Assembly: GCA_020343495.1 (NCBI GenBank)
Contig: CP070797.1
Location: forward strand, 1,510 to 65,509
DNA: 64,000 nucleotides
Direction: 5' to 3'
From: Candidatus Omnitrophota bacterium
Lineage (GTDB): Bacteria; Omnitrophota; Gorgyraeia; Duberdicusellales; 4484-171
Below the pieces are notes generated by a model. It saw nothing but the letters and a program-made list of their open reading frames with translations, made no database searches and had not been told where the DNA came from. Of this stretch, positions 8,101-35,903 are shown piece by piece. The translations under genes and the position numbers were made by a program. How positions within the stretch are numbered: the first letter of the stretch is position 1; every line of letters begins with the position of its first letter.

Positions 8101-11100
8101 TAAGTTGAAGATAGCTCTCATCTATATAGAACTGGGCATTACCCTCATTACCCTCGTTATCCTCGTTACTCATAATTACTTCGGTCTCAGAGTCAGTTGT
8201 CACTATGTTGCCGTAAGGGTCATAAGCAGTAACTGTAACCTCCCATCCGGTACCGGCATCCTGGTCGGTGTCGCAAGTTACCTCATAACGCTTAATAACA
8301 GAAGAAGGGCCAACCGTAATTGGGTCTGGATTGTGAAGACCGCTAATCTCGTTTTCCGGATCTTCTACAGTGACCGATTGCTCGCCTACGGTTTTTAGAA
8401 TTACTCCGTTACCTTTTGAGACGCTGAAGGTTACATACCCCGCTCCTAAACAATCAGCAGTCTGATAATGTATGGTTACGTCTTTTAACGTAGGCGTAAT
8501 TGTATTATCAGCGCTTGTCATAATTGCCTGATATTTGATATACTTATGGTTATTGTGGACGCTGGATATATCCTGGCCGGAAATGGTGTAGTAAAGGCCA
8601 GATACATCAGTTCCAACTTCACCTGCTGCTAAGTCTTCAATCTCATCAGGAGTTACTGCGCGGTTAAATATAGCCACTTCATCTACACTCCCAACATTTT
8701 GACTATCGGTATGATTGCCAATCCTACTTAAATCCTGTGTTATTTGTGTATTGGCTGTACTTACATAATTACCATCAATATAAAATTTTGTTGTCCCTCC
8801 CGAACTTATAGCTGCGATATGGTGCCAGCCTGCCGATAAAGAGTTGGTATTATATCCGCTCGAAGACCAACTATTGTTATAACATCCTATATTTCCGGAA
8901 GAATCCCATATAATATGATGATAAGTTCCCCCTTGCCGCTGGAATAAAGTTCTCCATCCCTGTGCTGTTGTGGGAAGCGGAAACTTAACCCATGCTGCCA
9001 TTGTTCTATCACCATTCATATTTATTGGTGAGATATTTACATAATCTGAAGTACCATCAAAATTCAATGCCCTTCCAAATTTGCCGGCAATCCAGACAGG
9101 AGTATTTACCAGTGTTCCTGTATTATTGCTAGGTGAACTATCTTGCGCACTCATGCCGCTACCTTCATTAAAATGCCATAACCCCACCAATCCTGGAATG
9201 AGGTCGGTCTGAGCGTCCCCTTCCCCCGGCCCCACAAACTCTGTCCAGCCGGTATCCGGGAGGGTTGAAGAAGCAATCAGGAATTTGATGCTTGTATCTT
9301 CAGGCACATCAGCATTCCAGGATATGCCGGAAAACCACGCCGGCTGCTCTAAATTCTTTATTGAGGAAGTAAACGTACCAGAAGTGCTATACAGCGTTTT
9401 ACTTTCCCACCAGGCAATGTCCCTGGCGTAATACGCCGACCCTAAGATATCTGTATCTCCATCGCTATCTATATCGGCGGCGTAGATACCCCAAGTATGA
9501 TCAAAACCTCCATCGATTACGTGTTTAGTAAAGCTTTGCATACCGTCGTTCTCATACCATGCCACGTCATCAGCATAAGCAGCCGAACCTAAAACATCAA
9601 TATCTCCGTCTCCATCTATATCTGTGGCATAGACGTCAATAGCGCCGTCAAAACCTCCATCAATTGTGTGTTTGGTGAAACTTTGCGCGCCGTTATTCTC
9701 CCACCAGGCAATGGCATCGTGGTAAAGCGCTGCACCTAACACATCAATATCGCCATCTCTATCTACATCAGTAGCGTAGATGCTGTAACCACAATCAAAA
9801 TACGTATCAATATTATGTTTGGTGAAACTCTGGTTACCGTCATTCTCATACCAGGCAATGTCATCCCAACCCTCTGATACACCTAAAACATCAATGTCGC
9901 CATCTTTATCTACATCTATAGCATAGACATCACGAACATAATAAAAATATGAATCAACAAAGTGTTTGGTAAAGTTCTGCTCCCCGTCATTCTCATACCA
10001 GGCAATGTCATGGTCGTAGACCGCTGCACCTAAAACATCCATATCTCCGTCGCTATCCACATCTATGGCATATACACTACAAGCATAATTAAAATTTCCA
10101 TCAATTACGTGCTTGGTAAAATTCTGCAGGCCATCATTCTCCCACCAGGCGATGTCATCAGTATTAGCTGCTGCACCCAAGACATCCATATCGCCATCAC
10201 TATCTACATCAACAGCATACACGCTATGGGCACCATCAAAACCTCCATCAATTATGTGCTTGGTAAAGTTCTGCGCGCCGTCATTCTCCCACCAGGCGAT
10301 GTCATCAGCTTCACGTGCTGCACCTAAAACATCCATATCTCCATCGCTATCCACATCTGCGGCGTAGACGTCAATAGCACCAACAAACTCTCCATCGATT
10401 ACATTTTTGGTAGTAGGGATAGCCACAGAATAAAGCGACAGTTCCGCTGCCTCGCCTGTTCCCCGCACTTGCGTACCTAAAGCCGGGCCGCTTGCGCCGC
10501 TTTTGAATTCCGTATCAGAACTCTGCCTCCATTCTTCAGGAACAACAAACCAGTAATTCTCAGGTAACACTGCTTGAGCATCTGTTGAAGAAAACTGGAT
10601 TTTACCGGTATAGTTCGCCGTAATATTGTTACTGGCATCCAATGCCGTTACTGTTATATCACTGGGCGTGCCGGCATTTATCGAGGACGGGATTCCTTCT
10701 ACTTTTAAACTTACTACTTCTTCGCCGCTGCCAACCACAATAGGAGAAGAGGCGCCCGAATAGTCGTAATCAGTAACGCTTATCGTAATAATTTCCGGCG
10801 TAGCGTCTTTAGCAAAAACAGTGGCAGTGCCTCCGGAAAGATTATAAAACACTGCTATCGTATCGTAGCTATCGTTGGTATAAAATTGCGCATCACCGTT
10901 GCTAGAAGGAGCAATTGCCACGGCTGCGCTGGCAACTGTATTGCCGTATTTATCTTTAGCTGTAACTGTCTCCTGCCAGCCAACACCTATGGTCTGAGGA
11001 GTGTGCGTGGTTACTTCATAATAACTGATATCGCCGGCTTCTACAGAGATGTATCCTGTGCTTGCCGTTATGTCATCTTTATCTTCAATCGTCAGGAAAA

Positions 11101-25064: not shown

Positions 25065-25961
25065 TTACCGAGATTGAACCTCGATATTTCGGATGACTTT
25101 ATCTTCGTAAAGTTCAACTTTCTCCTGGGAAAATGTCTGAGTAATCAACTCATTAATAATCCGGTCCCTCTGGCGCCTAGTATATTCAAACTCCACTTGC
25201 TGACGCACCTGCTTAAAAGGCTTATCCTGAGCAGGTTCTTTCTCGTTAATATGAAAGACGTAAAATTCATCCTTTATCTTAAGTACGTCAGTTACCTCGC
25301 CCTTATTAAGTTGAAAAATCTTATCTAACACCTGCGATGACAATATTTCTTCTAATTCGGGAGCAAAAGGTGCATCTTTTGAAATCCAGCTATCTATCCT
25401 GGTGATATTTCTTCCGCCGACTTTCTCAAAATTTCTGCCTTTATTCAATTGGTGGACTATTCTGTCTGCCTCCTTTTTGCTTTTTGATTTAACATAACTG
25501 AGCTTCACTTTTTCTTTTATGCGATATTTTTCTTTATTCTGCTCATAATATTTGCGCAAATCTTCTTCGCTGATTTTGAGTTTGGTGAATTCGTCAGCCA
25601 CCAACTTCTCAGCTAAAATCCCTCTCCTGGCGCGCTCTATCTCATGGATTACATCTGCTTCTCTGTCAAGTCCCTGACGCTTTGCCCTTTTAGCCAGGGC
25701 GAGGGTGGCAATATACTTACGGAAAAAATCCAGGCGCCAGGTTTTGCTCGTCTGGAAGTTCTCTTTAAGAAACCGGTTAAGTTTCTCTGATTCCCGCTCT
25801 AACTCCGAGAAGTATATCTTCTCTTTACCTATCGTTGCTATAATAAGGTCTTTGGCTGCCTCCTCTTCCTTAGACTCAGAAAAAACACTAGCCGTAACTA
25901 CAATCGTCATTACCGCCATCATTGGAACCAACAATTTTATTTTCATCATCCGCCTCTCCAT
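25065..25961 (-). CDS. Secreted PpiC/parvulin-type (SurA/PrsA-like) chaperone; the rotamase domain looks degenerate
   Basis: Signal-like MKIKLLVPMMAVMTIVVTASVFS. SurA-N-like helical region. Parvulin-like C-half: KVKLSYVKSKSKKEADRIVHQLNKGRNFEKV...LNKGEVTDVLKIKDEFYVFHINEKE. The true start is probably the internal ATGATG after GGAGAGG (M5/M6). Confidence 0.6.
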   Translation of the reverse strand: MERRMMKIKLLVPMMAVMTIVVTASVFSESKEEEAAKDLIIATIGKEKIYFSELERESEKLNRFLKENFQTSKTWRLDFFRKYIATLALAKRAKRQGLDREADVIHEIERARRGILAEKLVADEFTKLKISEEDLRKYYEQNKEKYRIKEKVKLSYVKSKSKKEADRIVHQLNKGRNFEKVGGRNITRIDSWISKDAPFAPELEEILSSQVLDKIFQLNKGEVTDVLKIKDEFYVFHINEKEPAQDKPFKQVRQQVEFEYTRRQRDRIINELITQTFSQEKVELYEDKVIRNIEVQSR

Positions 25962-25979
25962 ACCCGGTGTACGTTGGGT

Positions 25980-26615
25980 TTATTCTATAAGTTTATGTTG
26001 AACGGCATACTTTATAAGTTCTGACGTCTTATGAAGCCCCAGTTTTTTAAGGAGATTATTCTTATAGTTTTCTACGGTCCTGCGGCTAATAAAAAGGACT
26101 TCGGCTATTTCTTTTGCGGTTTTTCCTTCTACTATGAGGCGTAAGATATCAGCCTCCCGTTCAGTAAGGATTTCTTCAGCCGGTCCCTTGCCCTCACGGG
26201 TAACTTTTTCTATCATATACCGGGAAACCTGAGGGCTCATATACACCTCTCCCTTAGAAACATTACGTAAAGCCGGCAAGAGTTCCTCAACAACGTTCTC
26301 CTTATGAAGATACCCTTTAACGCCTAACTTCAATGCTTTTGCTATATAAATATTTGCCCGGTGCACTGTAACCATAATGACTTTTGTATTCGGCGAAAGA
26401 TAACGAATTTGCTCAATTACATCAAGGCCGCTCTTTTTAGGCATTGTAATATCCAGGAGAATGATATCCGGTTTAAGATTTTCTGTATTGCGAATAACTT
26501 CTTCTCCGTCTACAGCCTCACCCACCACTTTATACTCTGCCTGATTACGTAATATACTCTTGATTCCTTCACGAATAACGTCGTGATCGTCAGCAATCAA
26601 TACTTTCACCGCCAT
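25980..26615 (-). CDS. NarL/FixJ-family response regulator (REC + LuxR-type HTH)
   Basis: VLIADDHDVIREG...DIILLDITMPKKSGLDV...LTEREADILRLIVEGKTAKEIAEVLFISRRTVENYKNNLLKKLG. Confidence 0.9.
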   Translation of the reverse strand: MAVKVLIADDHDVIREGIKSILRNQAEYKVVGEAVDGEEVIRNTENLKPDIILLDITMPKKSGLDVIEQIRYLSPNTKVIMVTVHRANIYIAKALKLGVKGYLHKENVVEELLPALRNVSKGEVYMSPQVSRYMIEKVTREGKGPAEEILTEREADILRLIVEGKTAKEIAEVLFISRRTVENYKNNLLKKLGLHKTSELIKYAVQHKLIE

Positions 26616-26629
26616 TTCTTGTCTCCTTC

Positions 26630-27967
26630 TTACACTACCAATTCCACACTAATCTTAGTTCCTTTACTCACCTGGCTCTTAATATCCAACTTACCGCCTA
26701 AGAGCTCTATCCTTTCCCTTAACCCCTGTAAGCCCAGCTTCAACTTATCTTCACGTCGGCGCCGCGGCCGAGTGAGAAACTGCTGGTAATCAAACCCTTT
26801 ACCGTCGTCGCTAACGCTAAGATACACGGTGCGGTCTTTTTTCTGAAGGGATACCGTAACATTTCTTGCGTCAGCGTGTTTAATAACATTGGTTAAACAC
26901 TCCTGCACTACGCGGTAAAGAGCAAGGCTGTATTCGGGAGCGAGTTTTAAATCATAAGCCGGCTTATAATAGCGGTACTTACAATGCATTAGTTTCTGGT
27001 GTTCCGACACTAAAGCAGCGATACTTTCTACCAACCCTAAATCATCCAACTCCGGCGGCCGCAACAACTCAGAAATATTATGCCCTCTATAAATTAAGCT
27101 GTCTAATATCCCTTTACTTTTCTCAATCTTTTCTCTCTGCTCAAGGTTTTTGCCCTCTATATTTTTCTCAATAAGTTCTAAATAAATCTTTAATGCGCTT
27201 AAGTCCTGGCTTAACTGGTCGTGAATTTGACGGGAAAGGTTTTTACGTTCCTCCTCTTCCAGGCGAATCATTTTGCGGACAAGCCATTCCCGTCTCGTGC
27301 GTTCCTCTTCAAGGCTCTTATACACAAAAACAGCGATAGTTACTCCCAAAAGGATACTAAAAACCAAACTCACTAATAAAATAGCTGTAGAAACGTCCTT
27401 CTGTCTATAAGTTAACTTTAACTGCCGCTCAATATCTTTAAGATTGTTTTTACTTAACGTATTGGCCAGGAGGTCATCAATGCGGTAAAACTTATTTTCA
27501 AAAGAAATAAGAAATCTATTTACTTTTTCGCTGTCTTCGGCAGCGCTGTCTACTAACTCAATAAGTTTTTTACCGGTTTCTTCCAATCCTTTAGCTAATT
27601 CCTCAATAATTTTAAGCCAGTTCTCCTCTTGCTGTGAATCTGCCAGTAAATAATATTGCTTAATATAGTCTTTAAACTTAGCAGAGGATTTCTCAATAAA
27701 GTTCATATCGGAAGCAACTGAGGCAGCGTGCAGATACTTAGAAATACGCCAGGACACGTAATTGCGGACCCCCATGGAGTAAAAAGTGTTTTCAATTTTC
27801 ATCTCTAAAATTACCCTCTCTTTGGGTAAATACTTCTGCTCAAAATTCTCAATGGCTTTAGTCAAAACGTTAATTTGCAGCAGCCCCATAATGCCAATAC
27901 TTACGGTAAGGACAAGAAATAAACCAAACCCGATTAATAGCCTTTTTTCTCTAAAATATACTTTCAT
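26630..27967 (-). CDS. Sensor histidine kinase, HisKA_3/NarX-LiaS type, with a ~160-aa extracytoplasmic helical region
   Basis: TM1 at residues ~10-30 and TM2 at ~193-216. H-box RQIHDQLSQDLSALK. HATPase motifs ECLTNVIKHA, VSDDGKGFD, GLQGLRERIELLGG. Confidence 0.9.
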   Translation of the reverse strand: MKVYFREKRLLIGFGLFLVLTVSIGIMGLLQINVLTKAIENFEQKYLPKERVILEMKIENTFYSMGVRNYVSWRISKYLHAASVASDMNFIEKSSAKFKDYIKQYYLLADSQQEENWLKIIEELAKGLEETGKKLIELVDSAAEDSEKVNRFLISFENKFYRIDDLLANTLSKNNLKDIERQLKLTYRQKDVSTAILLVSLVFSILLGVTIAVFVYKSLEEERTRREWLVRKMIRLEEEERKNLSRQIHDQLSQDLSALKIYLELIEKNIEGKNLEQREKIEKSKGILDSLIYRGHNISELLRPPELDDLGLVESIAALVSEHQKLMHCKYRYYKPAYDLKLAPEYSLALYRVVQECLTNVIKHADARNVTVSLQKKDRTVYLSVSDDGKGFDYQQFLTRPRRRREDKLKLGLQGLRERIELLGGKLDIKSQVSKGTKISVELVV

Positions 27968-27988
27968 TGTCTCTGTTAACGATATAAT

Positions 27989-28729
27989 CTATTGGGAATA
28001 TTTTCCTTCAGGGAAAACCTGCTGATAAACCACGTCCTTAAGCCGGTTTATCCAGTTTAAGACTTCTTGCTTATCGGATGCCTCAGGTTTAAGTTCTAAA
28101 TATTTCTGATAATGAAGGATAGCTTTCTCCGGCTCTAAATTAAAGTTTTCATACAAAAGGCCTAAATTATAATGTGCCTCAGCATTCTTTGGTTCAAAAC
28201 TTAAAGATTTCTCATAGGCCTCAACAGCTTTACTGAAAAGCTTAGCCTGAACATAGGATACTCCTAAATTATAATAGTAGAATCCTCTTTCTTTTCTTAA
28301 AGTCTCTTCTAAAGTTACTACTTTCGCTTTAAGCTCGCTGTGTTCTTTAGCTAAAACATCCTGCTTCTCGTCTTTGGCTTCCGTTTCTTTAGTCATCTGG
28401 CTCTTTAATAATTCCAGCTGGCTACTTAAATTTTCTATATTTATATCTTTTCCTTCTACTGAGGATTTTAACTTTTTAATCTCTTCTTGCAACTGAGTAG
28501 TAAACTTTGTATAGTAAACCGCGTCAGCCTGAAACTCCTGGTTTTCCTCAAGTATTGTTTTCTTCTCTTTCTCCAAACGCTTAATATCTTCTTTTAGTTT
28601 CTCTGCTAGCTGGTCCGACTGGTCTAACTGCATCTGAAAAGAACTACCTTTTAAATAGAAACTTACCGCTACTGCAGCTATTGATATACTCCAAATTACA
28701 AGAATCGCGACCAAAATTTTCTGCGTCAT
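27989..28729 (-). CDS. Membrane-anchored coiled-coil + TPR protein
   Basis: N-terminal TM ILVAILVIWSISIAAVAVSFYL. About 110 aa of heptad-rich KE/LE sequence. C-terminal TPR-like region: YYNLGVSYVQAKLFSKAVEAYEKSLSFEPKNAEAHYNLGLLY. Confidence 0.7.
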   Translation of the reverse strand: MTQKILVAILVIWSISIAAVAVSFYLKGSSFQMQLDQSDQLAEKLKEDIKRLEKEKKTILEENQEFQADAVYYTKFTTQLQEEIKKLKSSVEGKDINIENLSSQLELLKSQMTKETEAKDEKQDVLAKEHSELKAKVVTLEETLRKERGFYYYNLGVSYVQAKLFSKAVEAYEKSLSFEPKNAEAHYNLGLLYENFNLEPEKAILHYQKYLELKPEASDKQEVLNWINRLKDVVYQQVFPEGKYSQ

Positions 28730-28751
28730 CTGCTACTACCGATTACAGGCG

Positions 28752-28765
28752 AGGGGCCTTCCCCT
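28752..28765 (-). other. Small GC-rich hairpin between the two TPR genes
   Basis: Sense AGGGG-AAGG-CCCCT (5-bp stem, 4-nt loop). No U-tract follows. Confidence 0.3.
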
Positions 28766-28766
28766 T

Positions 28767-29777
28767 TTACTGTAGAATATTTATCAGGTCTCTTGCTTTT
28801 TCGTTATATTTACCGTAAGGCTCCAACTCCAGATACTCGCGAAAACATTCTACGGCTATTTTAGAATCTTTTCTTTGATATTGATACAACAGCCCCAGGT
28901 AATAATATATAAGAGGGTCATCTGCCCTCAGGGTTAAAGATTTCTTATACGCTTCTATCGCTTCATTATACAACTTTGCCTTAACATAAGAAGCTGCTAA
29001 CTGTGCATAAAGAGCTGACTTTTCTTTTTTATTCTTTTCTTTCTCTTTAGATAAAGCTTGGGAAAACGCCGCCAGTTTCTCTTCTAAAGCCTTATTCTTA
29101 GCTTCAACTTCAGACACGCCAGCCGCAAATGCAGCTAATTTATCCTTAGAATCTTTCTCATCTTGCTTTTGTCCCTCATCTGATTTAGCTTTGGCTGCCC
29201 TTTTTATATCACGTTCAAACTTATCCAGGACTTCGTCTAACTCACTCCTGGTGTAACTTTTTCCTGTCAGCGGCGCTGCCTTCCTTCCCACATCTTCTAC
29301 GGATACGCCCAGTTTAGCGGCTATATCTGCAAGATGTTGTTGTGCTTTATCTGTCCAGGGATCACTTTTCTCTCCCAACTTTATTCTCCTCCTCCAGTAA
29401 TAGGCAGATTCCTGATAATCGCCTTTCTCTTCATAAAGCAAGGCTAAATTAGAATATGCGCTTATACATTTGGGGTCTTTCTCTATACATTTTAAATAAT
29501 ACCGGGCTGCTTCTTGAGGCTGGCCCTTTGCTTCATATATAACTCCTATATCATTATAGAGAATAAAATAGGCGGGGTCTAAAGTTAAAGCTCGCTGGTA
29601 AAAACTCATTGCAGCATCTATATCGCCTTTTTTCTGAGAGGCGTACCCTTTATTTCGAAGTTCTCTTGCACTTTGCTGTAATGCCGTCAATTGCCCGGCT
29701 TCTAAATAAGGAACATAGATAAAAACTGCTATTAAAAAAGACAGAACTCCAAACTTTAATCCCAAACATCTCATCAA
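28767..29777 (-). CDS. Secreted TPR / coiled-coil / TPR protein
   Basis: Signal-like LKFGVLSFLIAVFIYVPYLEA. TPR units: AMSFYQRALTLDPAYFILYNDIGVIYEAKGQPQEAARYYLKCIEKDPK and more. A central charged coiled coil, then C-terminal TPRs. Confidence 0.7.
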   Translation of the reverse strand: MMRCLGLKFGVLSFLIAVFIYVPYLEAGQLTALQQSARELRNKGYASQKKGDIDAAMSFYQRALTLDPAYFILYNDIGVIYEAKGQPQEAARYYLKCIEKDPKCISAYSNLALLYEEKGDYQESAYYWRRRIKLGEKSDPWTDKAQQHLADIAAKLGVSVEDVGRKAAPLTGKSYTRSELDEVLDKFERDIKRAAKAKSDEGQKQDEKDSKDKLAAFAAGVSEVEAKNKALEEKLAAFSQALSKEKEKNKKEKSALYAQLAASYVKAKLYNEAIEAYKKSLTLRADDPLIYYYLGLLYQYQRKDSKIAVECFREYLELEPYGKYNEKARDLINILQ

Positions 29778-29828
29778 TTTATTGTATCCTAAAAACAGTA
29801 AAAACTAAAGACTTAAAATAAAAAATTA

Positions 29829-31583
29829 CTATTTTAGATCTTTTGTTCCTTTAATTTTTTTCTGAATATCGGATTCTTTTTGTTCTTTTGCCTCTTTGGT
29901 TTTTCTTAAAACCAATTCTTCTACGGGATGGCCGACTTTTTTGACTTCTATTTTTTCTATTTCTTCTAAAACTATTCTATCTTTCATATGAGACGTCATA
30001 ACTTCCTTAGGAACAACCTTCTCAATTTCTGCTCCTGATAAAGCTTTCACTCCCGGCGTAATTCTCGGAGTAAGAAATATAACTGTTTCGGTCTTTTTAA
30101 GGCGGCGGTCGCGGTTAGAAAATAACCCGCTTATAAGAGGGATTTTTGCAAGAAGGGGGTTACCGGAAATAGTTTCTCTATCTTCATCTTTAATTAACCC
30201 CGCAACCATAATTGTAGTGCCGTCTTTTATCTTTACTACGGTTTCGGCTTCTGCCGTATCTACAATAGGGATTTCACTGCCTAAAGATGTCTCAAGAGTT
30301 GTCCTGACAGAGCTTACCTCGGGTTTTATCTTCATAGTAATAAACCCTTCTTTATTTATTGTAGGCACAACGTTTAATTTAACGCCTACGTCAATAAACT
30401 CAACTGCCTCAGCAGTAACGGTAGTGGTTCCCTGGCTTTGCGTTTGGCTTACGTAAGCTTCCCTTGACCCTACGAGAATTTTTGCTTCTTCACCGCTTAC
30501 TACACAGAGCCGCGGACGTGACAAGATTTTTACGTCGGTATATTCCTGTAAATACTGTACCACCGCCTTATAGCCGTCAGAGGCGACTGTGCCTACGCTT
30601 AACTGCTGATATGAAGACAAACTGCTTACGGAAAATTCACCCGTCAAATCCAGGCCGTGAAAATTTTCCCGGTTAAACAGTTTCTCCCAATCAATCCCTC
30701 TTCTGAAACGGTCATCCAGAGTAATTTCTAAGATTTCTGCTTCAATAAAAACCTGTCGGGATTCCTCATCAAAAGCTTGGAGCATCTTCTCTACTTCAAC
30801 CAGTTTTTGCGGCAAATCCGAAACAAACACTTTACTGCTTCTTTCGTCTACAACAACCTCTCCCGTATCAGCGGTTACGACATTAGTTAAACTCGTCTTA
30901 ATATCTTCGGCTTTTGAATAATTCAAATCAAACACTGCTGTCTGAAGCGGTTTATCTAAGTTTTCAATAGTTTCCTCCATTAAAGCTAAATTCTGGGGCG
31001 TATCAAGGATGACAATAACCCCTGAGGCTTTATCAACAATAACTTTACCTATATCAGACTTTACACTTCCCAACGCAGAAAATATATTCTCAGGATTGGC
31101 ATACTTTAGCTTAAAACTCTTAAACGCTCTCTTCTCAATATAATCCCGGCCGTACTGAGCCTTGTACTCCTTGGCAGTCATTACAAAAATGACTCTATCT
31201 TTCTCTTCAACAGCAAGCCCCTGGCTGACGAGAATAACGTCAATAGCATCTTGGAAAGTAACCTTGTTCAAGAAAATATTAATGCGGCCTCTAACATTCT
31301 TGCTGGGAACAATAGTTTTGTCTGTTTTTATAGACAATACCCTAAAAAGGTCTGTAATATCAACGCCTTTCAAGTCTAAAGATATCTCCTCTCCATCCAC
31401 ATTAACGTCTCCATCTTCAACGTTGCTAGTTTTCCCTGGCGCAGAAGCTTCCTGAGATTTGGGAGCCTGCGGGGAAACAGGCAATTCTGTAGATGCAGAA
31501 TTTTCCTGGGCGCAGGTAAAAGTCATATTACCCAACACCAAACAAATCACAAAAAAAGGCGTAAAAAGGATTTTTCCTGTCAT
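29829..31583 (-). CDS. Secretin family protein (GspD/PilQ/MshL-like), paralog 2
   Basis: N0/STN-like region: ISLDLKGVDITDLFRVLSIKTDKTIVPSKNVRGRINIFLNKVTFQDAIDVIL. C-terminal secretin core: ILSRPRLCVVSGEEAKILVG...GVKLNVVPTINKEGFITMKIKPEVSS...GNPLLAKIPLISGLFSNRD...TETVIFLTPRI. It ends in an ~80-aa charged tail. Confidence 0.85.
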   Translation of the reverse strand: MTGKILFTPFFVICLVLGNMTFTCAQENSASTELPVSPQAPKSQEASAPGKTSNVEDGDVNVDGEEISLDLKGVDITDLFRVLSIKTDKTIVPSKNVRGRINIFLNKVTFQDAIDVILVSQGLAVEEKDRVIFVMTAKEYKAQYGRDYIEKRAFKSFKLKYANPENIFSALGSVKSDIGKVIVDKASGVIVILDTPQNLALMEETIENLDKPLQTAVFDLNYSKAEDIKTSLTNVVTADTGEVVVDERSSKVFVSDLPQKLVEVEKMLQAFDEESRQVFIEAEILEITLDDRFRRGIDWEKLFNRENFHGLDLTGEFSVSSLSSYQQLSVGTVASDGYKAVVQYLQEYTDVKILSRPRLCVVSGEEAKILVGSREAYVSQTQSQGTTTVTAEAVEFIDVGVKLNVVPTINKEGFITMKIKPEVSSVRTTLETSLGSEIPIVDTAEAETVVKIKDGTTIMVAGLIKDEDRETISGNPLLAKIPLISGLFSNRDRRLKKTETVIFLTPRITPGVKALSGAEIEKVVPKEVMTSHMKDRIVLEEIEKIEVKKVGHPVEELVLRKTKEAKEQKESDIQKKIKGTKDLK

Positions 31584-31597
31584 ACTTTATAATTTTA

Positions 31598-31644
31598 TCA
31601 CAGAAAATTAAAAAACAGAAGAATTTGACTACGATTTTCTGTGA
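31598..31644 (-). promoter_or_regulatory. 11-bp inverted repeat between the two secretin genes, with a competing terminator-like pairing
   Basis: Plus strand tcacagaaaat (31598-31608) pairs with attttctgtga (31634-31644). On the sense strand the 5' arm ACAGAA (31637-31642) can instead pair with TTCTGT (31615-31620), which is directly followed by TTTTT. Confidence 0.4.
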
Positions 31645-31648
31645 ACTT

Positions 31649-33265
31649 TCAATATTCTTTTATACCTTTCAACTTTGACCAAAGTTCTTCGCCTAAATCT
31701 GGAGGTTGGACAACTTCTGCTTCTATCTCCGACAGTTTTGTATCAACTTCATCGTCTCCTAACTTCACCAAAACATCCTCATCCAAAGCTCCCGTAACAA
31801 TCCTGGGAGTAAGAAAAACAATAAACTCTGTCCGTTTCTTAAGGACATCCCGCTTACTAAAAATGCCGCCAATAATAGGAATTTTAGCTAAACCCGGTAT
31901 CCCGTAAACCGTATCGTCGTCCCTGTCCTTTACTAATCCGGCGACCATAAGAGTTGTTCCGTCTTTAACTTTCACTATGGTTTCGGCTTCGGAAGTATCA
32001 ACAATAGGAATAGTGCTGCCTTCAGCAGTCGTAAGAGTTCCGCTTATTGAACTTACTTCCGGCTTAATCTTCATAGTAATAAACCCTTCCTTATTAATTG
32101 TGGGTGTAACGTTCAACTTAATTCCTATATCAACAAATTCTATAGCTTCTGCGGTAACAATTGTCTCTTCTGACTGGCTTTGAGTCTGCGACACGTAAGG
32201 CTGCCGCGTTCCCAGCAAAAACTTTGCCTCCTCGTTATTCACTACTACAATTTGCGGCTGAGACAGCGTTCTTACCTCGCCCTGAGTCCTTAAAAAATCT
32301 AACAATACATAGTATTCATCATCTGCTACTGCCCCTATATTAATCCTGCCAAAAGCAGTTAAACTTTCCTCAAAACTTGACCTTAAAGTAAAATGGCCGA
32401 TCCTGCGCCAGTCAATGCCGCGCTGGGTCCGGTCAGTAAACGTAACCTCAACAATCTTTGTCGCGATAGCAACCTGACGGCTGCCTTCGTCAAATGCAGA
32501 AACCAACTGAGTAATCGTCCTTATCCTCTCCTGAAGGTCAGAAACTACCACTTTAGAAGTGCGCTCGTCAATAACCACTCTCCCTACGTTAGGCGTAAGA
32601 AAGTTATCTAAATACTCTTTTACGTCAGCCGGTTTTGCATAGTTTAAGTCAAAAACTATTGTTCTTAACGGTTTATCCAACTCACTAACTGCCTGCGTCA
32701 TTAATTCCAAAACATCCGGCGCATCAACAACCAAAAAAGTCCCTGAAGTTTCGTCAGTAATAACTTTCCCGATCTCAGACTTCAGCTCCTTCAATACGGC
32801 AGCAACATTACTTGGTTTAGCATATTTAAGTTTAAAACTTTTAAATTCTCTTCTTTCATTAAACTTGACGCCAAAAAGGCCTGAGTACTCAGATGCGCTC
32901 ATAATAGTAATAATATTGCCTTTTTTCTCATAAGCTAAATCCTGACTAAGCAAAATTACATCTAAAGCGTCATCAAAACTAACTTTGTCTAAAAAAATAT
33001 TCATCCGGCCCTTTACCTCTTTACTGGGCATAATCGTAAGCCCGCTTTTAATAGCTAGTATCTTAAACAATTCTCTGATATCTACATTTTTTAAATCTAA
33101 AGATATTAATTCTTCTTCCGATTCAGACTCTACTAAACCAGATGCGTCCGTATCAATCTCTTCCTGAGCCCAGGAGAATAATTCAAAATTAAATTTTGCC
33201 CCTACCATAAGGCCCAGACTAACTGCGGCTAACCCTATTATAAAAAGCCTCTTTACTCTTCTCAT
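31649..33265 (-). CDS. Secretin family protein (GspD/PilQ/MshL-like), paralog 1
   Basis: Same architecture as 29829-31583. N0/STN-like: ISLDLKNVDIRELFKILAIKSGLTIMPSKEVKGRMNIFLDKVSFDDALDVIL. Secretin core: LSQPQIVVVNNEEAKFLLG...GIKLNVTPTINKEGFITMKIKPEVSS...GIPGLAKIPIIGGIFSKRD...TEFIVFLTPRI. Confidence 0.85.
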   Translation of the reverse strand: MRRVKRLFIIGLAAVSLGLMVGAKFNFELFSWAQEEIDTDASGLVESESEEELISLDLKNVDIRELFKILAIKSGLTIMPSKEVKGRMNIFLDKVSFDDALDVILLSQDLAYEKKGNIITIMSASEYSGLFGVKFNERREFKSFKLKYAKPSNVAAVLKELKSEIGKVITDETSGTFLVVDAPDVLELMTQAVSELDKPLRTIVFDLNYAKPADVKEYLDNFLTPNVGRVVIDERTSKVVVSDLQERIRTITQLVSAFDEGSRQVAIATKIVEVTFTDRTQRGIDWRRIGHFTLRSSFEESLTAFGRINIGAVADDEYYVLLDFLRTQGEVRTLSQPQIVVVNNEEAKFLLGTRQPYVSQTQSQSEETIVTAEAIEFVDIGIKLNVTPTINKEGFITMKIKPEVSSISGTLTTAEGSTIPIVDTSEAETIVKVKDGTTLMVAGLVKDRDDDTVYGIPGLAKIPIIGGIFSKRDVLKKRTEFIVFLTPRIVTGALDEDVLVKLGDDEVDTKLSEIEAEVVQPPDLGEELWSKLKGIKEY

Positions 33266-33266
33266 A

Positions 33267-33908
33267 TTACCTTAATTCTAATTCGCTGCCTTCTACGTCT
33301 ATCATAACTCTATTCTTATAAATCTTTTTTATCGTTATAACTCCCAACTGGTCTCCTTCCGACAAAAGATATGTTTTTTCTTCCTGTTCGTCTTCAATCA
33401 TAACCTCAGGGTTAATCTTTGACCATATAATCCCCACCAATTTTATCCCCTCAATAAGCTTTAAAACGTCTCTTTCTGTTATCTCTTCTCCTTTTTCCAC
33501 TTTTTCTTCTTTCGGAAGAGTAAAACTGAATACATTGCGTTTCTTCGCCTGGGAGATACTTTCTTCTAAACTTACGTCTAAATAAGCTTTGCTTTCCTTA
33601 AATATATTAAAGTCAGCGCTTACGGTTTCAACGGCTGCCACTCTACTCACCCATTTAACTCTGGAATAATAAAAATAAACCGCCCAAAAAACTGTTATGC
33701 CAACACATACCCCCACTAATATTTTATTAATTGTCCGCAGTTTAAACGCCTCTAGAATCTTTTTTCCTTTGCGAAGCTGCTGGATATTTAACTTAGTTTT
33801 CAGATGGTCAGCTTTTCTCTTAAAAAAGGAAAAGTGTTTTTCTGCGGCGGAAGGATTTTCTATTATCTTAAGCAATTTATCTTCGGGAGTCATCTTATCC
33901 TTTTCCAT
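33267..33908 (-). CDS. Bitopic membrane protein with a PilP/GspC-HR-like C-terminal beta domain (possible secretin-docking component)
   Basis: One TM: ILVGVCVGITVFWAVYFYY. C-terminus: IKLVGIIWSKINPEVMIEDEQEEKTYLLSEGDQLGVITIKKIYKNRVMIDVEGSELEL. Only one nucleotide (33266) separates its stop from the secretin start. The assignment is by pattern only. Confidence 0.4.
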   Translation of the reverse strand: MEKDKMTPEDKLLKIIENPSAAEKHFSFFKRKADHLKTKLNIQQLRKGKKILEAFKLRTINKILVGVCVGITVFWAVYFYYSRVKWVSRVAAVETVSADFNIFKESKAYLDVSLEESISQAKKRNVFSFTLPKEEKVEKGEEITERDVLKLIEGIKLVGIIWSKINPEVMIEDEQEEKTYLLSEGDQLGVITIKKIYKNRVMIDVEGSELELR

Positions 33909-33936
33909 TATTTTAACTCCTTCTTAATATATTTCT

Positions 33937-34779
33937 TTAGCGGACTCCCTCTAAATCGCTCATCATCTCTCTGGCAATTAACCCCTTGATAGTTTCTGAC
34001 CCTACAACCGGCTGGCTATCCATTACCAAACATTTTAAAGCGTTATGGCATACCATAGCAATACGCCGGGGATACCCTTGAGTATATTTGTAGATTTCTT
34101 TTACTGCCTCATCAGTAAAAAACTTAGGGCCGTAATTGTAACCTGCTTTTCTTAATCTAAACTCAATCATTTCCTTTGTTTCCTTCTCATCTAAGGGGTT
34201 TAACATATACCTTAAACTTATCCGGTCCCATAAATTCTTTATCTGGTGCAAACGGGGAAGAAGCTCCAGCTGCCCCATAATAATCAATTGAAGCAATTTA
34301 TACTCGTTTGTCTCATAATTTAATAATACCCTTAAAATTTCTAAAGGAAGCTGGTTTAATTTTTGAGCTTCGTCAATCAACAAAACAACTGTTTTATTAT
34401 TCTCTATTCCCATTTTAAAAAGATAATTTTTTATCGCTTCTTTAAAATCTAAAATACTGGGATTGGGCTTTTTCATTTCTATATTAAAAGTCCTGATTAA
34501 TGAATCCAGGAAAAGCTCTTCCGTATCATAAGTGGGGTCAAGAATCATATGAAAAATTATATCCTCGCGGGCCCGCAACATCTGAAAAAGCTTTCTTGAG
34601 AGAGTGGTTTTGCCGGTTCCCACATCGCCTAGAACTATGCTTAAGCCTCTCTTTAAGCGTATTTCTATCATTATCCGCATCAATGCGGCATGGTGTTCCT
34701 GCGATTCATAAAAAAAATCGGGATCCGGGCTTGTAGAAAACGGTTCGCGTTCTAAACCTAAAATATTATAGTAACTCAT
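33937..34779 (-). CDS. ExeA/GspA/MshM-like AAA ATPase (no peptidoglycan-binding extension)
   Basis: YYNILGLEREPFSTSPDPDFFYESQEHHAAL. Walker A GDVGTGKTT. Walker B VVLLIDEAQ. YTQGYPRRI. At 280 aa its length resembles MshM more than full-length ExeA. Confidence 0.8.
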   Translation of the reverse strand: MSYYNILGLEREPFSTSPDPDFFYESQEHHAALMRIMIEIRLKRGLSIVLGDVGTGKTTLSRKLFQMLRAREDIIFHMILDPTYDTEELFLDSLIRTFNIEMKKPNPSILDFKEAIKNYLFKMGIENNKTVVLLIDEAQKLNQLPLEILRVLLNYETNEYKLLQLIIMGQLELLPRLHQIKNLWDRISLRYMLNPLDEKETKEMIEFRLRKAGYNYGPKFFTDEAVKEIYKYTQGYPRRIAMVCHNALKCLVMDSQPVVGSETIKGLIAREMMSDLEGVR

Positions 34780-34881: not shown

Positions 34882-35112
34882 CTATACTCCGATTATTTTT
34901 TTACGAATTAAATTCAAAGGATACCCTTTTTTACTTAACGTAAAAATCCTGTTTAACCGCCGGCGGATGACTTGCGCATCATACATTCTTTGGTTGCCTT
35001 CTTTCCTTAAAAGAGGCAACAATCCTATAGTTGTATAATAATTTACGGTATGATACGGGATGTTAAATCTCTTAACGATATCCTGTGCAGAAATGGCTTT
35101 GCCTTTCATCAT
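34882..35112 (-). CDS. Small MerR-family HTH protein (76 aa)
   Basis: ISAQDIVKRFNIPYHTVNYYTTIGLLPLLRKEGNQRMYDAQVIRRRLNRIFTLSKKGYPLNLIRKKI fits the MerR-type HTH/wing pattern (YYxxxGLL...R.Y). Confidence 0.65.
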   Translation of the reverse strand: MMKGKAISAQDIVKRFNIPYHTVNYYTTIGLLPLLRKEGNQRMYDAQVIRRRLNRIFTLSKKGYPLNLIRKKIIGV

Positions 35113-35176: not shown

Positions 35177-35204
35177 ACTATAGCATATACTATACTTTTG
35201 TCAA
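35177..35204 (-). promoter_or_regulatory. Predicted sigma70-type promoter of the MerR-like gene
   Basis: Sense: TTGACA (35199-35204), 16-nt spacer, TGcTATAGT (-10 at 35177-35182). The 8-mer TAGTAGTT occurs three times nearby (plus-strand aactacta at 35140, 35149 and 35203), and one copy abuts the -35. Confidence 0.55.
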
Positions 35205-35291: not shown

Positions 35292-35903
35292 TCAATACAT
35301 ATTGATAATAAAAATTATTCCTTTTCTTACCATCATAACCGCAATAGCAGCCAGTAGCAGGCTCATAACTTTTGATAATGCTTTAGAACCGGATTCGCCT
35401 AAAATTCTAATCAATATTCTTGATGATGAGAAAATAATGCCCGCTAATATAATGTTTGATAAAACAGCTATTATAGTTGCTACCATACCGTATTCTTGTA
35501 ATATTACCAGTGACGTCGTTAATACCGCCGGGCCAACAATTAAAGGCGTGCCTATGGGAACAGCCCCCACTTCTCTACTGGGGATACGGCGGCGTTTACC
35601 GGGATTAATTATATCCATTATACCAATACAGAACAGTATTATTCCTCCTGCCACCATAAAATCATACATAGTTATGTTAAGAAGCCTGAATACGCCCCTG
35701 CCTAAAAATATAAAAACTAAAGCTAAACATATTGCCGTTATTACTGATTGAAGTATAACTTTTGACCTTTTATCTTTTTTTACCCCTTCGGTAAGAGATA
35801 CAAAAATAGGTAAAACCCCTACTGCATCAACAGCTACAAATACAGGAATGAATGCCAGGCAAATTGCTCTAAATAGACTCATATTTAAACTTACGTCGCC
35901 CAA
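35292..35903 (-). CDS. MarC-family (UPF0056) integral membrane protein
   Basis: Six hydrophobic segments. Motif [25 protein letters not shown]. Confidence 0.7.

What the first reader, a model, noticed from the sequence alone, without database searches (positions are those of the whole stretch)
25065..34779. Nine-gene secretin-centred module lacking pilins, GspE/F ATPase-platform genes and a prepilin peptidase, placed directly upstream of the giant genes
**Seen in the sequence**
- A same-strand string with 1-65-nt gaps: ExeA/MshM-like ATPase, PilP/GspC-like protein, secretin, secretin, TPR/coiled-coil, TPR/coiled-coil, histidine kinase, NarL-type regulator, parvulin-like chaperone.
- It is followed by a putative terminator and then the small ORF plus giant-gene unit.

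**Established knowledge**
- In the Vibrio MSHA operon the secretin MshL is followed by MshM (ExeA-like ATPase) and MshN (TPR).
- In Aeromonas, ExeA/ExeB promote assembly of the secretin ExeD.

**Inference**
- This window contains only that secretin-assembly core plus a periplasmic chaperone. I see no pseudopilin, pilin, GspE/PilB, GspF/PilC or prepilin peptidase within 64 kb.
- It may be a secretin conduit dedicated to moving the Sec-exported giant protein(s) across the outer membrane.
- This is a hypothesis based on adjacency only.
Basis: partly seen in the sequence, partly recalled or inferred. Interest (0 to 1): 0.8.

Follow-up and report, generated by a model that had tools for sequence, protein, structure and literature searches.

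The report
Outer-membrane half of a secretion machine
This gene string is the outer-membrane (secretin) half of a type II secretion / type IV pilus-like machine in an uncultured Omnitrophota bacterium; its motor and pilin genes lie elsewhere, and it is conserved next to genes for very large sugar-binding surface proteins that it probably exports or displays.

Summary
No pilin, GspE/F or prepilin peptidase gene is in the 64 kb. A tenth gene, a small MerR regulator, leads the string.

The 'pilus-less secretin conduit' reading is probably wrong. The window comes from a Candidatus Omnitrophota MAG. The core (short GspA/MshM-like ATPase, GspB/C-like HR protein, one or two secretins, TPR proteins) is conserved in every related locus long enough to show it.
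- In 5 of 31 informative loci it directly follows a full GspE-F-PilM/N-PilO-GspG-minor pseudopilin-GspK set.
- In three other genomes that set lies downstream, beyond a DUF2341/LamG giant gene and an F-type ATPase operon. In one of them the module is shown on the same contig. By synteny this would fall beyond the window's left edge.

The link to big surface proteins is real. 16 of 25 informative loci carry a DUF2341, Kelch or FG-GAP large gene after the module.

The giants share a C-terminal module ending in a near-invariant peptide, KPV(T/V)QTW(F/Y)E(F/Y)(K/R)-COOH. This may be a recognition signal.

Verdict: a new variant of a known kind. It is partly anticipated by published notes on secretion and pilus genes near Omnitrophota giant genes.

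The parts
35177..35204 (-). Best sigma-70-like promoter match (TTGACA-16-TATAGT, TG extension), upstream of the MerR gene
   Evidence: 11 of 12 matches, the best site in the region. This is a consensus match only.
34882..35112 (-). 76-aa MerR-family HTH gene, probably the first gene of the string
   Evidence: Pfam MerR_1 E 2e-9, above its cut-off. A MerR_1 gene also precedes the ATPase in L001, L093 and L095.
33937..34779 (-). Short, cytoplasm-only GspA/ExeA/MshM-like AAA+ ATPase (280 aa)
   Evidence: AAA_22 E 4e-17. No TM segment. 58-88% identical across the 80 related loci kept of 562 confirmed matches, and 100% identical to an NCBI Omnitrophota protein.
33267..33908 (-). GspB/GspC-like protein: conserved cytoplasmic N-terminal motif (TPEDKLLKIIE), one TM segment (63-81), periplasmic HR domain (about 150-213)
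   Evidence: A family profile hits the GspC HR domain in PDB 3OSS_C (E 2e-4) and 7OIO. 22 of 31 members hit T2SSC and 12 of 31 hit T2SSB. TM segment.
31649..33265 (-). Secretin 1 (538 aa; signal peptide, STN/N0, two Secretin_N, Secretin)
29829..31583 (-). Secretin 2 (584 aa), a tandem paralogue 51% identical to secretin 1
   Evidence: About twenty related loci have two secretins and the others have one.
28767..29777 (-). Exported TPR / coiled-coil / TPR protein (336 aa)
   Evidence: TPR_1 E 1e-21. N-terminal hydrophobic segment. TPR genes follow the secretin in nearly all relatives long enough to show it. TPR repeats are fused to the second secretin in L093.
27989..28729 (-). Membrane-anchored coiled-coil and TPR protein (246 aa)
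   Evidence: The most widely conserved accessory gene after the secretin.
26630..27967 (-). Sensor histidine kinase (two TM segments, 4HB-like sensor, HisKA_3, HATPase_c)
   Evidence: The HK-RR pair sits between the TPR genes and the DUF2341 gene in L001, L004, L041, L049, L051, L055, L069, L093 and L095.
25980..26615 (-). NarL/GerE-type response regulator
25065..25961 (-). Parvulin-type PPIase (SurA_N-like plus Rotamase_2) with a signal or anchor segment; a lineage-specific addition
   Evidence: No homologue lies within the module in any related locus, including the closest, L005.
24503..24799 (-). 98-aa Trp/Cys-rich small ORF preceded by a good Shine-Dalgarno sequence
   Evidence: Protein-level homologues lie directly upstream of DUF2341 genes in L005 and L092. 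No family hit.
22349..24496 (-). N-terminal module of the giant (aa 1-716: signal-like segment, beta-sandwiches, DUF2341, ConA-like lectin domain), equivalent to stand-alone 790-1000-aa DUF2341 proteins in relatives
   Evidence: 39-41% identity to the separate DUF2341 proteins of L092, L093 and L095. DUF2341 E 6e-22. AF2 model of the paralogue P0241 has pLDDT 85.8, with legume-lectin, ERGIC-53 and GH16 folds as best matches.
2162..24496 (-). Giant gene, 7444 aa (DUF2341, five Laminin_G_3, FG-GAP propellers, Ig-like repeats)
   Evidence: Residues 2957-7444 match the separately encoded LamG giant of L092, so here the two genes are fused.
2165..3700 (-). Conserved C-terminal module of the giant (two beta-sandwiches and long helices), ending in the peptide ANKPVTQVWFEFR-COOH (2165-2203)
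   Evidence: 321 cluster representatives at E<=1e-3, nearly all matching at the extreme C-terminus of proteins of 2000-5700 aa. Peptide found in 100 of 150 by a strict pattern, with P, W and E 98-100% conserved. Present in all five complete giant C-termini held. The peptide is unstructured in the AF2 monomer model.
1..2062 (-). 5' two-thirds of a second DUF2341 gene (1000 aa in the NCBI record); it runs off the window
   Evidence: P0241 is 100% identical and sits on the 1,516,639-bp contig.

Best explanation
The string is the secretin-side sub-operon of a type II secretion / MSHA-like type IV filament machine that is conserved across Omnitrophota.

Proposed roles, inferred by homology unless marked otherwise:
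- The cytoplasmic GspA/MshM-like ATPase pairs with the membrane-anchored GspB/C-like protein.
- That protein's periplasmic HR domain docks on the N0 ring of the secretin(s).
- The TPR proteins help assemble or stabilise the secretin, or act as a receptor at it.
- The embedded MerR and HK-RR genes control expression of the neighbouring cargo genes.

The ATPase motor (GspE with an MshEN c-di-GMP domain), platform (GspF, PilM/N fusion, PilO/GspM-like) and pseudopilus (GspG, minor pseudopilins, GspK-like) are encoded elsewhere in the genome. By synteny with three relatives, they lie beyond the window's left edge, after the large genes and an F-type ATPase operon. This placement is inferred and was not seen.

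The Sec-exported DUF2341 lectin-like proteins and the LamG/FG-GAP giant are the machine's payload. They leave the periplasm through the secretin(s), driven by the pseudopilus. The invariant C-terminal peptide of the giants is the recognition or docking element. It would be read either by the GspK-like tip pseudopilin (beta-strand addition, as proposed for PilY1 and MshQ) or by the TPR proteins. This last step is speculative.
For: Identity of the parts. Published work shows that the GspB HR domain binds secretin N0 and that short GspA forms exist (PMC9239104).

The module belongs to a complete machine:
- In 5 of 31 loci with at least 5 kb upstream, the same strand carries T2SSE+MshEN, T2SSF, a PilM/PilN fusion, T2SSM/PilO-like, T2SSG, N_methyl minor pseudopilins (one T2SSJ-like) and a GspK-like gene directly before the ATPase.
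- L069 has all of this plus HK-RR and a DUF2341 gene within 20 kb.
- In contig Ga0265297_10000068 the module (L013) and the E-to-G set (L088) lie on one strand. They are bridged exactly by a 4408-aa Kelch/DUF2341 gene (73,428 to 60,202), and the whole cluster spans 33.7 kb.
- The same tail, giant then F-ATPase then gspE onward, occurs in L090 and L096.
- The L088 major pseudopilin passes NCBI's GspG equivalog cut-off (130 against 88.9). GspE, GspF, GspM and GspK are the best-scoring families for their genes.

Link to the payload:
- 16 of 25 informative contigs have a DUF2341, Kelch or FG-GAP large gene after the module.
- The reverse look-ups from DUF2341 proteins land directly after the module on all three contigs reached.
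- Upstream neighbourhoods differ (AFOR/NYN, Bat operon, SerRS, ACCase), so the block moves as a unit.
- Two gene fusions support physical association: DUF2341 with the LamG giant in this window, and secretin with TPR in L093.
- The giant has a signal-like N-terminus with VYA|D. It has no T1SS, T5SS or T9SS domain.
- The C-terminal peptide is conserved and disordered in the monomer model.
- DUF2341 is linked in the literature to type IV filament systems, and MshQ is predicted to dock on the PilK-type pilin through its C-terminus (PMC4858521, PMC11809585, PMC12918778).
Against: - The window genome's own gspE-to-K genes were not seen. Its contig is not in the look-up index, and it was not among the 120 GspE hits listed.
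- Linkage to large genes is absent in 9 of 25 loci, mainly the most divergent ones.
- Everything about cargo rests on adjacency, fusions and conservation. There are no expression or localisation data.
- T2SS substrates of about 0.8 MDa are unprecedented. A folded 7444-aa chain is far longer than the periplasm is wide.
- Secretin, GspE and GspF scores stay below NCBI equivalog cut-offs. Seymour et al. classify the same F-ATPase-linked gene set as T4aP, so the subclass is unsettled.
- No prepilin peptidase was seen in any locus.
Confidence: 0.65

Rival explanations
1. The secretins, with their ATPase, HR-protein and TPR helpers, form a stand-alone outer-membrane conduit for the giant proteins. 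No pseudopilus, GspE motor or platform is involved.
For: None of those genes is in the 64 kb. In 26 of 31 loci with enough upstream sequence the module is detached from them. The module has its own AAA+ ATPase.
Against: - The orthologous module is contiguous with a complete E/F/L/M/G-K set in five loci.
- It is on the same contig and strand as that set in one detached case, and the same giant-to-gspE tail recurs in two more genomes.
- GspA-type ATPases are secretin-assembly factors, not translocation motors (PMC9239104).
- An HR-domain protein normally couples the secretin to an inner-membrane platform.
Confidence: 0.07
2. The module only builds the outer-membrane channel of a pilus or pseudopilus used for attachment, motility or secretion of ordinary proteins. 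The large genes are neighbours by descent and reach the surface by another route, or are simply co-regulated adhesins.
For: - 9 of 25 loci lack the large-gene neighbour.
- Seymour et al. interpret the F-ATPase/T4aP loci as attachment and motility devices without invoking giants.
- Size argues against passage through a T2SS.
Against: - Linkage persists while flanks are reshuffled, and holds in both directions.
- The giant sits between the two halves of the machine in three genomes.
- An HK-RR pair is inserted between the secretin genes and the DUF2341 gene.
- No other secretion apparatus or sorting domain is near or in the giants.
Confidence: 0.2
3. The system is a retractile MSHA-type or T4a pilus rather than a secretion system. 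The DUF2341 proteins and giants are stably tip-mounted adhesins (MshQ/PilY1 analogues), not released cargo.
For: - The gene content mirrors MSHA: a MshE-type ATPase with an MshEN domain (c-di-GMP motif model passed, 51 against 38), a PilM/N fusion like MshI, a short MshM-like ATPase, TPR like MshN, and large DUF2341/LamG proteins like MshQ (own knowledge for MshI and MshQ domain content).
- MshQ is predicted to insert its C-terminus into the PilK-type pilin.
- TXSScan-based work calls these loci T4aP.
- The secretin domain scores slightly higher against PilQ structures than against GspD.
Against: - The major subunit is GspG by NCBI's cut-off, and GspK/GspM/GspJ-like genes are present.
- No PilT is in any locus.
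- The secretins have no AMIN domains.
- MshL scores are lower than PilQ or GspD scores.
This rival overlaps the best explanation. It differs only in filament dynamics and in whether the payload is released.
Confidence: 0.3

Closest known systems
GspA/GspB-GspD secretin-assembly unit of type II secretion systems (Aeromonas ExeA/ExeB-ExeD; short-GspA archetype of Alteromonas and Pseudoalteromonas; PMC9239104)
   Same: An AAA+ ATPase gene lies next to a single-pass protein with a periplasmic HR domain, next to the secretin. HR-to-N0 docking is expected. The short GspA lacks a periplasmic peptidoglycan-binding part.
   Different: - Only one HR protein is present in the complete loci, so it may do the work of both GspB and GspC.
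- The secretin is often duplicated.
- TPR proteins take the place of a GspS pilotin.
- The phylum is Omnitrophota, not Proteobacteria.
- All equivalog scores are sub-threshold.
Vibrio cholerae MSHA pilus locus (mshI-J-K-L-M-N-E-G-F and mshB-A-C-D-O-P-Q)
   Same: It shares a secretin, a short ExeA-like ATPase and a TPR protein. In relatives it also shares an MshEN-bearing ATPase, a PilM/N fusion, and a large DUF2341/LamG protein at the end of the locus.
   Different: - The gene order differs.
- The major subunit is GspG-like, and GspK/M-like genes are present.
- The partner proteins reach 4000-7400 aa and carry a different conserved C-terminal module.
- The locus is split by an F-type ATPase operon.
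[quoted passage not shown] 2023, PMC10066038)
   Same: The GspE-F-PilM/N-PilO-pilin set found here in relatives lies directly after an F-type ATPase operon, as that paper reports (57 of 66 contigs within 10 kb).
   Different: In the text I read, that paper does not mention the secretin/GspA/HR/TPR sub-operon, its HK-RR pair, or the DUF2341/LamG genes as parts of one cluster. It calls the system T4aP.
T2SS-like locus upstream of Omnitrophota giant genes (West-Roberts et al. 2023, bioRxiv 10.1101/2023.11.21.568195; recapitulated in 10.64898/2026.06.07.730766)
   Same: Secretion genes (gspD, and a Rotamase_2 PPIase) lie next to giant genes in the same phylum. The idea is the same: the machine serves the giant proteins.
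   Different: - Their locus has gspE, gspF and rcpC.
- Their giants are proteins of more than 30,000 aa with many TM segments and SecA-like domains.
- The paper has no mention of DUF2341, LamG, Kelch or FG-GAP, and its few mentions of C-termini concern C39 peptidase and SecA-related domains, not a conserved terminal peptide.
PilC/PilY1 tip adhesins of type IV pili (PMC12918778)
   Same: Large non-pilin proteins are encoded with the filament genes. A short, conserved extreme C-terminal peptide is proposed to add a beta-strand to the PilK-type minor pilin.
   Different: There is no PilY1 beta-propeller homology. The peptide sequence is unrelated as far as tested, and docking was not tested here.

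Membership tests
Type II secretion system (Gsp) | Outer-membrane secretin GspD with N0, N-domains and a secretin domain | tested here: inconclusive
   Pfam Secretin, two Secretin_N and STN/N0 are all present. The NCBIfam GspD equivalog scores 206 and 215 bits against a cut-off of 351, and PilQ scores are similar.
Type II secretion system (Gsp) | HR-domain protein (GspC or GspB) that docks on secretin N0 | tested here: met
   The family profile hits GspC HR structures 3OSS_C (E 2e-4) and 7OIO. 22 of 31 members hit T2SSC, best E 2e-8. The window protein alone is below the Pfam cut-off (17 against 27 bits).
Type II secretion system (Gsp) | GspE ATPase, GspF platform and GspL/M in the same system | tested here: inconclusive
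   Absent from the window. Present and contiguous with the orthologous module in L062, L065, L068, L069 and L086. On the same contig as the module in L013/L088. The rest of the window's genome could not be read.
Type II secretion system (Gsp) | Major pseudopilin GspG and minor pseudopilins including GspK | tested here: inconclusive
   None in the window. In relatives, GspG passes NCBI's equivalog cut-off (130 against 88.9), and GspK-like and T2SSJ-like genes score below threshold.
Type II secretion system (Gsp) | Prepilin peptidase GspO/PilD | tested here: not met
   No Peptidase_A24 gene in the window. None appeared among the Pfam-annotated genes of the related loci examined. It is often encoded elsewhere, so this is weak evidence.
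Type II secretion system (Gsp) | Substrates cross the inner membrane by Sec or Tat, then leave through the secretin | not testable with these tools
   The giant and P0241 have signal-like N-termini. Export itself needs an experiment.
MSHA-type pilus | MshL secretin with MshM (short ExeA-like ATPase) and MshN (TPR) | tested here: inconclusive
   All three kinds of gene are present, but in the order M-HR-L-L-N-N. The MshL equivalog scores 148 and 173 bits against a cut-off of 250.
MSHA-type pilus | MshE ATPase with a c-di-GMP-binding MshEN domain | tested here: inconclusive
   Met in relatives: PF05157 is present and NF053729 passes (51 against 38) in L065 and L088. Not seen for the window's own genome.
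MSHA-type pilus | Large MshQ-like protein (DUF2341 plus LamG) encoded with the system | tested here: met
   DUF2341 and Laminin_G_3 are in the genes after the module. That MshQ has these domains is from my own knowledge. MshQ as a PilY1 analogue is from PMC12918778.
MSHA-type pilus | MshA-type major pilin | tested here: not met
   The major subunit in relatives is GspG-type.
Type IVa pilus (PilQ / PilMNOP / PilF) | PilQ with N-terminal AMIN domains, a lipoprotein PilP, and a PilT retraction ATPase | tested here: not met
   No AMIN hit. PilQ subfamily scores 215 and 222 bits against a cut-off of 284. The HR protein has a TM anchor and no lipobox. Only one GspE-type Walker A gene was found per locus.
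West-Roberts Omnitrophota giant-gene secretion locus | More than 10 subunits including gspD, gspE, gspF, rcpC and a Rotamase_2 PPIase, upstream of giants of more than 30,000 aa | tested here: not met
   gspD and Rotamase_2 are present. gspE, gspF and rcpC are absent. The giant is of a different class.

The most novel reading that the evidence does not exclude
Omnitrophota use a T2SS/MSHA-like filament as a launcher for giant lectin-type adhesins.
- The invariant C-terminal peptide KPV(T/V)QTW(F/Y)E(F/Y)(K/R)-COOH of proteins of 2000-7400 aa would insert by beta-strand addition into the GspK-like tip pseudopilin, or be captured by the secretin-associated TPR proteins.
- The pseudopilus would then thread the giant through the (often duplicated) secretin and hold it at the cell surface, with the DUF2341 lectin module acting as adaptor or distal binding head.
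- This would be a new sorting signal, and a way of exporting megadalton adhesins distinct from T1SS, T5SS and T9SS.
Probability: 0.25. Interest if true: 0.8.

Novelty: new variant of a known kind. Interest (0 to 1): 0.5.

Why it matters
Omnitrophota are ultra-small, uncultured, probably predatory or host-dependent bacteria. Their very large proteins are thought to mediate attachment to prey, but how such proteins reach the surface is unknown.

This analysis ties several elements into one conserved, sometimes split gene cluster:
- a phylum-wide secretin/GspA/HR/TPR module;
- the F-ATPase-linked 'T4aP' genes already noted in the literature;
- a two-component system;
- a family of large DUF2341/LamG/Kelch proteins.

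It also identifies an almost invariant C-terminal peptide on those proteins. That yields a concrete, testable export or display hypothesis, and a sequence tag for finding the cargo family in metagenomes. It also warns against reading 'no pilins or ATPase within 64 kb' as a new kind of pilus-independent secretin system.

Tried and rejected
1. Reading beyond the window. Look-ups of the window's own proteins (HR protein, P0001, P0241) found no indexed contig. The presence of gspE-to-K in this genome therefore remains inferred.
2. The genome-contig scan with the HR-protein alignment returned only 3 loci because the patterns were too specific.
3. I looked for the 1,516,639-bp contig among the GspE homologues. 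It is not in the 120 listed. This is not evidence of absence, because thousands of hits were not listed.
4. PEP-CTERM/exosortase system. The ATPase's best NCBIfam hit is TIGR03015 and the PPIase weakly hits EpsD, both far below cut-off. No exosortase gene is in the window and the giant has no PEP-CTERM tail. Rejected.
5. Tad/Flp or T3SS secretin. RcpA and SctC scores are much lower than PilQ and GspD scores. Rejected.
6. PilY1-like fold in the DUF2341 protein or the giant's C-terminal module. Foldseek gives only ConA-like lectin and Ig/FnIII-like sandwiches.
7. Intrinsic terminator after the PPIase. Not found by the consensus scan.
8. BLAST alone missed the Kelch-type large genes, which needed Pfam (against 36).
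9. A literature search for MshQ alone returned a medical questionnaire.

Full report
**1. What is in the window**

All genes of interest are on the minus strand. ORF calling and Pfam/NCBIfam scans confirm the nine-gene string:
- 33937-34779: a 280-aa AAA_22 ATPase with no TM segment.
- 33267-33908: a 213-aa protein with one TM segment and a weak T2SSC hit.
- 31649-33265 and 29829-31583: two secretins, each with STN/N0, two Secretin_N and a Secretin domain. They are 51% identical to each other.
- 28767-29777 and 27989-28729: two TPR / coiled-coil proteins.
- 26630-27967: a HisKA_3 kinase.
- 25980-26615: a NarL-type regulator.
- 25065-25961: a SurA_N/Rotamase_2 PPIase.

Gaps between the genes are 1-65 nt. 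A tenth gene, a 76-aa MerR_1 regulator (34882-35112), precedes the ATPase. The best promoter-like site of the region lies upstream of it.

Downstream come three further genes:
- a 98-aa ORF (24503-24799);
- the 7444-aa giant (2162-24496), with DUF2341, five Laminin_G_3 domains and FG-GAP repeats;
- a second DUF2341 gene, which is only 1000 aa in the NCBI record (P0241).

The rest of the window (35.3-64 kb) is housekeeping: MarC, NYN, U32 peptidase, AFOR, glutamine synthetase, glutamate dehydrogenase, Ddl and others.

No pilin, GspE, GspF or prepilin peptidase was found in the window. This rests on three tests: Pfam, motif scans, and tblastn with Omnitrophota T2SS proteins. The consensus scan finds no terminator after the PPIase.

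**2. Origin and conservation**

The ATPase is 100% identical to a protein of a Candidatus Omnitrophota MAG on a 1,516,639-bp contig. It has thousands of homologues, and the listed ones are 72-88% identical.

A metagenome scan confirmed 562 related loci, of which 80 were fetched. In every locus long enough to show it, the order is ATPase, then the ~215-aa protein, then one or two secretins. TPR / coiled-coil genes follow in nearly all of them. An HK-RR pair often comes next, and an IS200-like Y1_Tnp gene is also common.

No PPIase homologue lies within the module in any relative.

A profile of 31 of the ~215-aa proteins hits the GspC HR domain (PDB 3OSS_C at E 2e-4, and 7OIO). 22 of 31 members hit T2SSC and 12 of 31 hit T2SSB. 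Published work shows three relevant things (PMC9239104):
- the GspB HR domain has the GspC/PilP fold and binds secretin N0;
- gspB usually lies next to gspA;
- short GspA forms without a periplasmic part exist.

The first three genes are therefore a GspA / GspB-or-C / GspD unit.

**3. The module is half of a complete machine**

In 5 of 31 loci with at least 5 kb upstream (L062, L065, L068, L069, L086), the same strand carries a full set directly before the ATPase. The set is:
- a GspE-type ATPase with an MshEN domain;
- GspF;
- a PilM/PilN fusion;
- a PilO/GspM-like gene;
- a T2SSG major pseudopilin (GFTLIEIMLVVIILGVLAAMVVP);
- N_methyl minor pseudopilins, one of them T2SSJ-like;
- a GspK-like gene.

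L069 continues through the secretin, TPR and HK-RR genes to a 790-aa DUF2341 gene.

I then looked for detached modules whose contig also carries the E-to-K set.

On Ga0265297_10000068 the order along one strand is:
- ATPase, HR protein, secretin, TPR, Y1_Tnp;
- a 4408-aa Kelch/DUF2341 giant, whose coordinates 73,428 to 60,202 exactly bridge loci L013 and L088;
- a 275-aa gene, a Peptidase_MA_2 gene and an RR-GGDEF gene;
- an F-type ATPase operon;
- GspE, F, PilM/N, PilO-like, pseudopilins, K and G.

The whole cluster spans 33.7 kb. The same tail occurs in L090 (4995-aa giant) and L096 (4402-aa giant).

NCBIfam places the L088 major subunit above the GspG equivalog cut-off. GspE, GspF, GspM and GspK are the best-scoring families for their genes, and the MshE-type c-di-GMP motif model is passed.

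Seymour et al. (PMC10066038) describe what looks like the same gene set, a pilus-type cluster directly after an F-type ATPase operon. [quoted passage not shown]

By synteny, the window's missing components should lie beyond its left edge. I could not read that DNA.

**4. The link to the large proteins is real**

- Forward test: 16 of 25 contigs with enough downstream sequence carry a DUF2341, Kelch or FG-GAP large gene after the module. The exceptions are mostly the most divergent loci.
- Reverse test: look-ups from DUF2341 homologues reached three contigs (that of L001/L092, L093 and L095), and all have MerR-ATPase-HR-secretin(s)-TPR-HK-RR directly upstream. This holds although the farther neighbourhoods differ.
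- Gene pair: relatives encode a DUF2341 protein of 790-1000 aa followed by a separate LamG giant (5552 aa in L095, 2051 aa in L092).
- Fusion: in the window the two are fused. Residues 1-716 match the stand-alone DUF2341 proteins at 39-41% identity. Residues 2957-7444 match the L092 LamG protein.
- Fold: an AF2 model of P0241 (pLDDT 85.8) shows stacked beta-sandwiches. A ConA-like lectin domain is closest to legume lectins, ERGIC-53 and GH16 glucanases.
- Literature on DUF2341: Makarova et al. find DUF2341 proteins in archaeal type IV pilus loci and propose that they sit at the pilus tip (PMC4858521). [quoted passage not shown] A 2026 preprint predicts that MshQ docks on the PilK-type pilin through its extreme C-terminus (PMC12918778).

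**5. A conserved C-terminal tag**

The last 512 residues of the giant match 321 cluster representatives at E<=1e-3, and 127 at E<=1e-30. Nearly all matches lie at the extreme C-terminus of proteins of 2000-5700 aa.

The chains end in [VI]-A-N-K-P-V-[TV]-Q-T-W-[FY]-E-[FY]-[KR]-COOH.
- A strict pattern matches 100 of 150 representatives.
- P, W and E are 98-100% conserved.
- In 86 cases exactly one residue follows E-[FY].
- Many of the rest are variants or truncated sequences.
- All five complete giant C-termini in my loci carry it.

In the AF2 model of this module (pLDDT 75.5), two confident beta-sandwiches and long helices are followed by the peptide as a low-confidence, unstructured tail. That is what one expects of a segment that folds on a partner. 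Foldseek gives only generic Ig-like matches.

I found no mention of this module or peptide in the papers searched.

**6. Mechanism proposed**

Shown:
- the parts and their families;
- conservation of the module;
- its contiguity with a complete T2SS-type set in some genomes;
- its co-linearity with that set, across a giant gene, in one other genome, and the same giant-to-gspE tail in two more;
- the two-way linkage with DUF2341 and giant genes;
- the fusions;
- the C-terminal peptide.

Inferred by homology:
- GspA plus the HR protein place and anchor the secretin;
- the TPR proteins assist the secretin;
- MerR and HK-RR regulate expression.

Inferred by context:
- the Sec-exported DUF2341 and giant proteins are the payload of this machine;
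- the peptide is read by the GspK-like tip pseudopilin or by the TPR proteins.

Main difficulties:
- the size of the cargo;
- the absence of direct data;
- the unsettled subclass (T2SS, MSHA or T4aP).

**7. Comparison and verdict**

The closest known systems are:
- the GspA/B-GspD unit of T2SS;
- the Vibrio MSHA locus, which has the same kinds of parts, including an MshQ-like partner;
- the Omnitrophota F-ATPase/T4aP loci.

West-Roberts et al. already noted T2SS-like genes, including a Rotamase_2 PPIase, upstream of Omnitrophota giant genes. Their locus has gspE/F/rcpC, and their giants belong to another class.

The finding is therefore not a new kind of pilus-free secretin conduit. It is a new variant of a known kind: a split T2SS/MSHA-like cluster that embeds regulators and very large lectin-type payload genes carrying a conserved C-terminal tag.

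Interest is moderate. The published context lowers the surprise. The supercluster and the peptide give a concrete, testable handle on how giant adhesins are exported or displayed.

Noticed in passing
window 24503-24799 (-); L005 13947-14255; L092 9349-9645: A 98-aa Trp/Cys-rich ORF (YWIFDPGCWIVDP...SGCWILNP...WVFSSGSWMFD) is conserved at protein level in three close relatives. Each copy lies directly upstream of a DUF2341 gene and has a good Shine-Dalgarno sequence. No family hit. It could be a small partner, leader peptide or regulator of the DUF2341 genes.
   Followed up: partly
L002 16820-17767; L004 17276-18163; L013 14859-15824; L025 16686-17801; L054 16563-17582: An IS200-like Y1_Tnp gene of about 295-370 aa sits at a conserved position between the TPR genes and the large DUF2341/Kelch gene in many Omnitrophota loci. 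This suggests a domesticated or position-locked transposase-like gene. It is absent from the window.
   Followed up: partly
window 2165-2203 (-) and about 100-125 of the 150 cluster representatives listed (P0314-P0463): A near-invariant extreme C-terminal peptide, ANKPV(T/V)QTW(F/Y)E(F/Y)(K/R)-COOH, ends a family of large proteins of 2000-5700 aa. It is a candidate new sorting or docking signal. I found no description of it in the papers searched.
   Followed up: partly
L093 5417-7636; L094 2365-4551: The second secretin is fused to TPR repeats in one polypeptide (739 and 728 aa). This gene fusion supports a direct secretin-TPR interaction.
   Followed up: no
L065 636-2060; L069 3-1385; L088 5084-9988; L090 4863-9959; L096 4739-9921: The GspE-to-GspK set always directly follows an F-type ATPase operon (epsilon, c, b/delta, alpha, gamma, beta). 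This matches the 'symbiotic F-ATPase/T4aP loci' of Seymour et al. The L088 alpha subunit nevertheless passes NCBI's ordinary F0F1 alpha cut-offs.
   Followed up: partly
window 44505-44660 (-), within ORF 44469-45659: The C-terminal ~50 aa of a response-regulator/GGDEF protein resemble the N-terminal MshEN-type region of the Omnitrophota GspE (42% over 52 aa, E 1e-6). This may be a c-di-GMP-binding motif on a cyclase-like protein. A GGDEF gene also lies upstream in the syntenic L001.
   Followed up: no
window 1-2062 (-): The second 'giant' of the finding is a 1000-aa DUF2341 protein in the NCBI record (P0241). It ends in a Gly-rich repeat (...GGGGGGRVYLKAPAG...GSLIVE) shared by one subgroup of DUF2341 proteins. 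Another subgroup ends in a Lys-rich tail.
   Followed up: partly
L065 10874-11245: A 23S rRNA intervening-sequence protein gene (PF05635) is inserted between the ATPase and the HR-protein gene in one relative.
   Followed up: no
window 35292-42221 against L001 2831-7992: The upstream neighbourhood (AFOR, class II aldolase, U32 peptidase, NYN) is syntenic with the JGI contig Ga0452209_002185. Other relatives have a BatA-D/MoxR aerotolerance operon or unrelated genes upstream of the module.
   Followed up: partly
L088 2464-4141; L090 3220-4832; L096 2916-3737: A conserved unannotated gene of 268-275 aa, often followed by a Peptidase_MA_2 gene and an RR-GGDEF gene, follows the giant gene's stop in three genomes, before the F-ATPase operon.
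   Followed up: no
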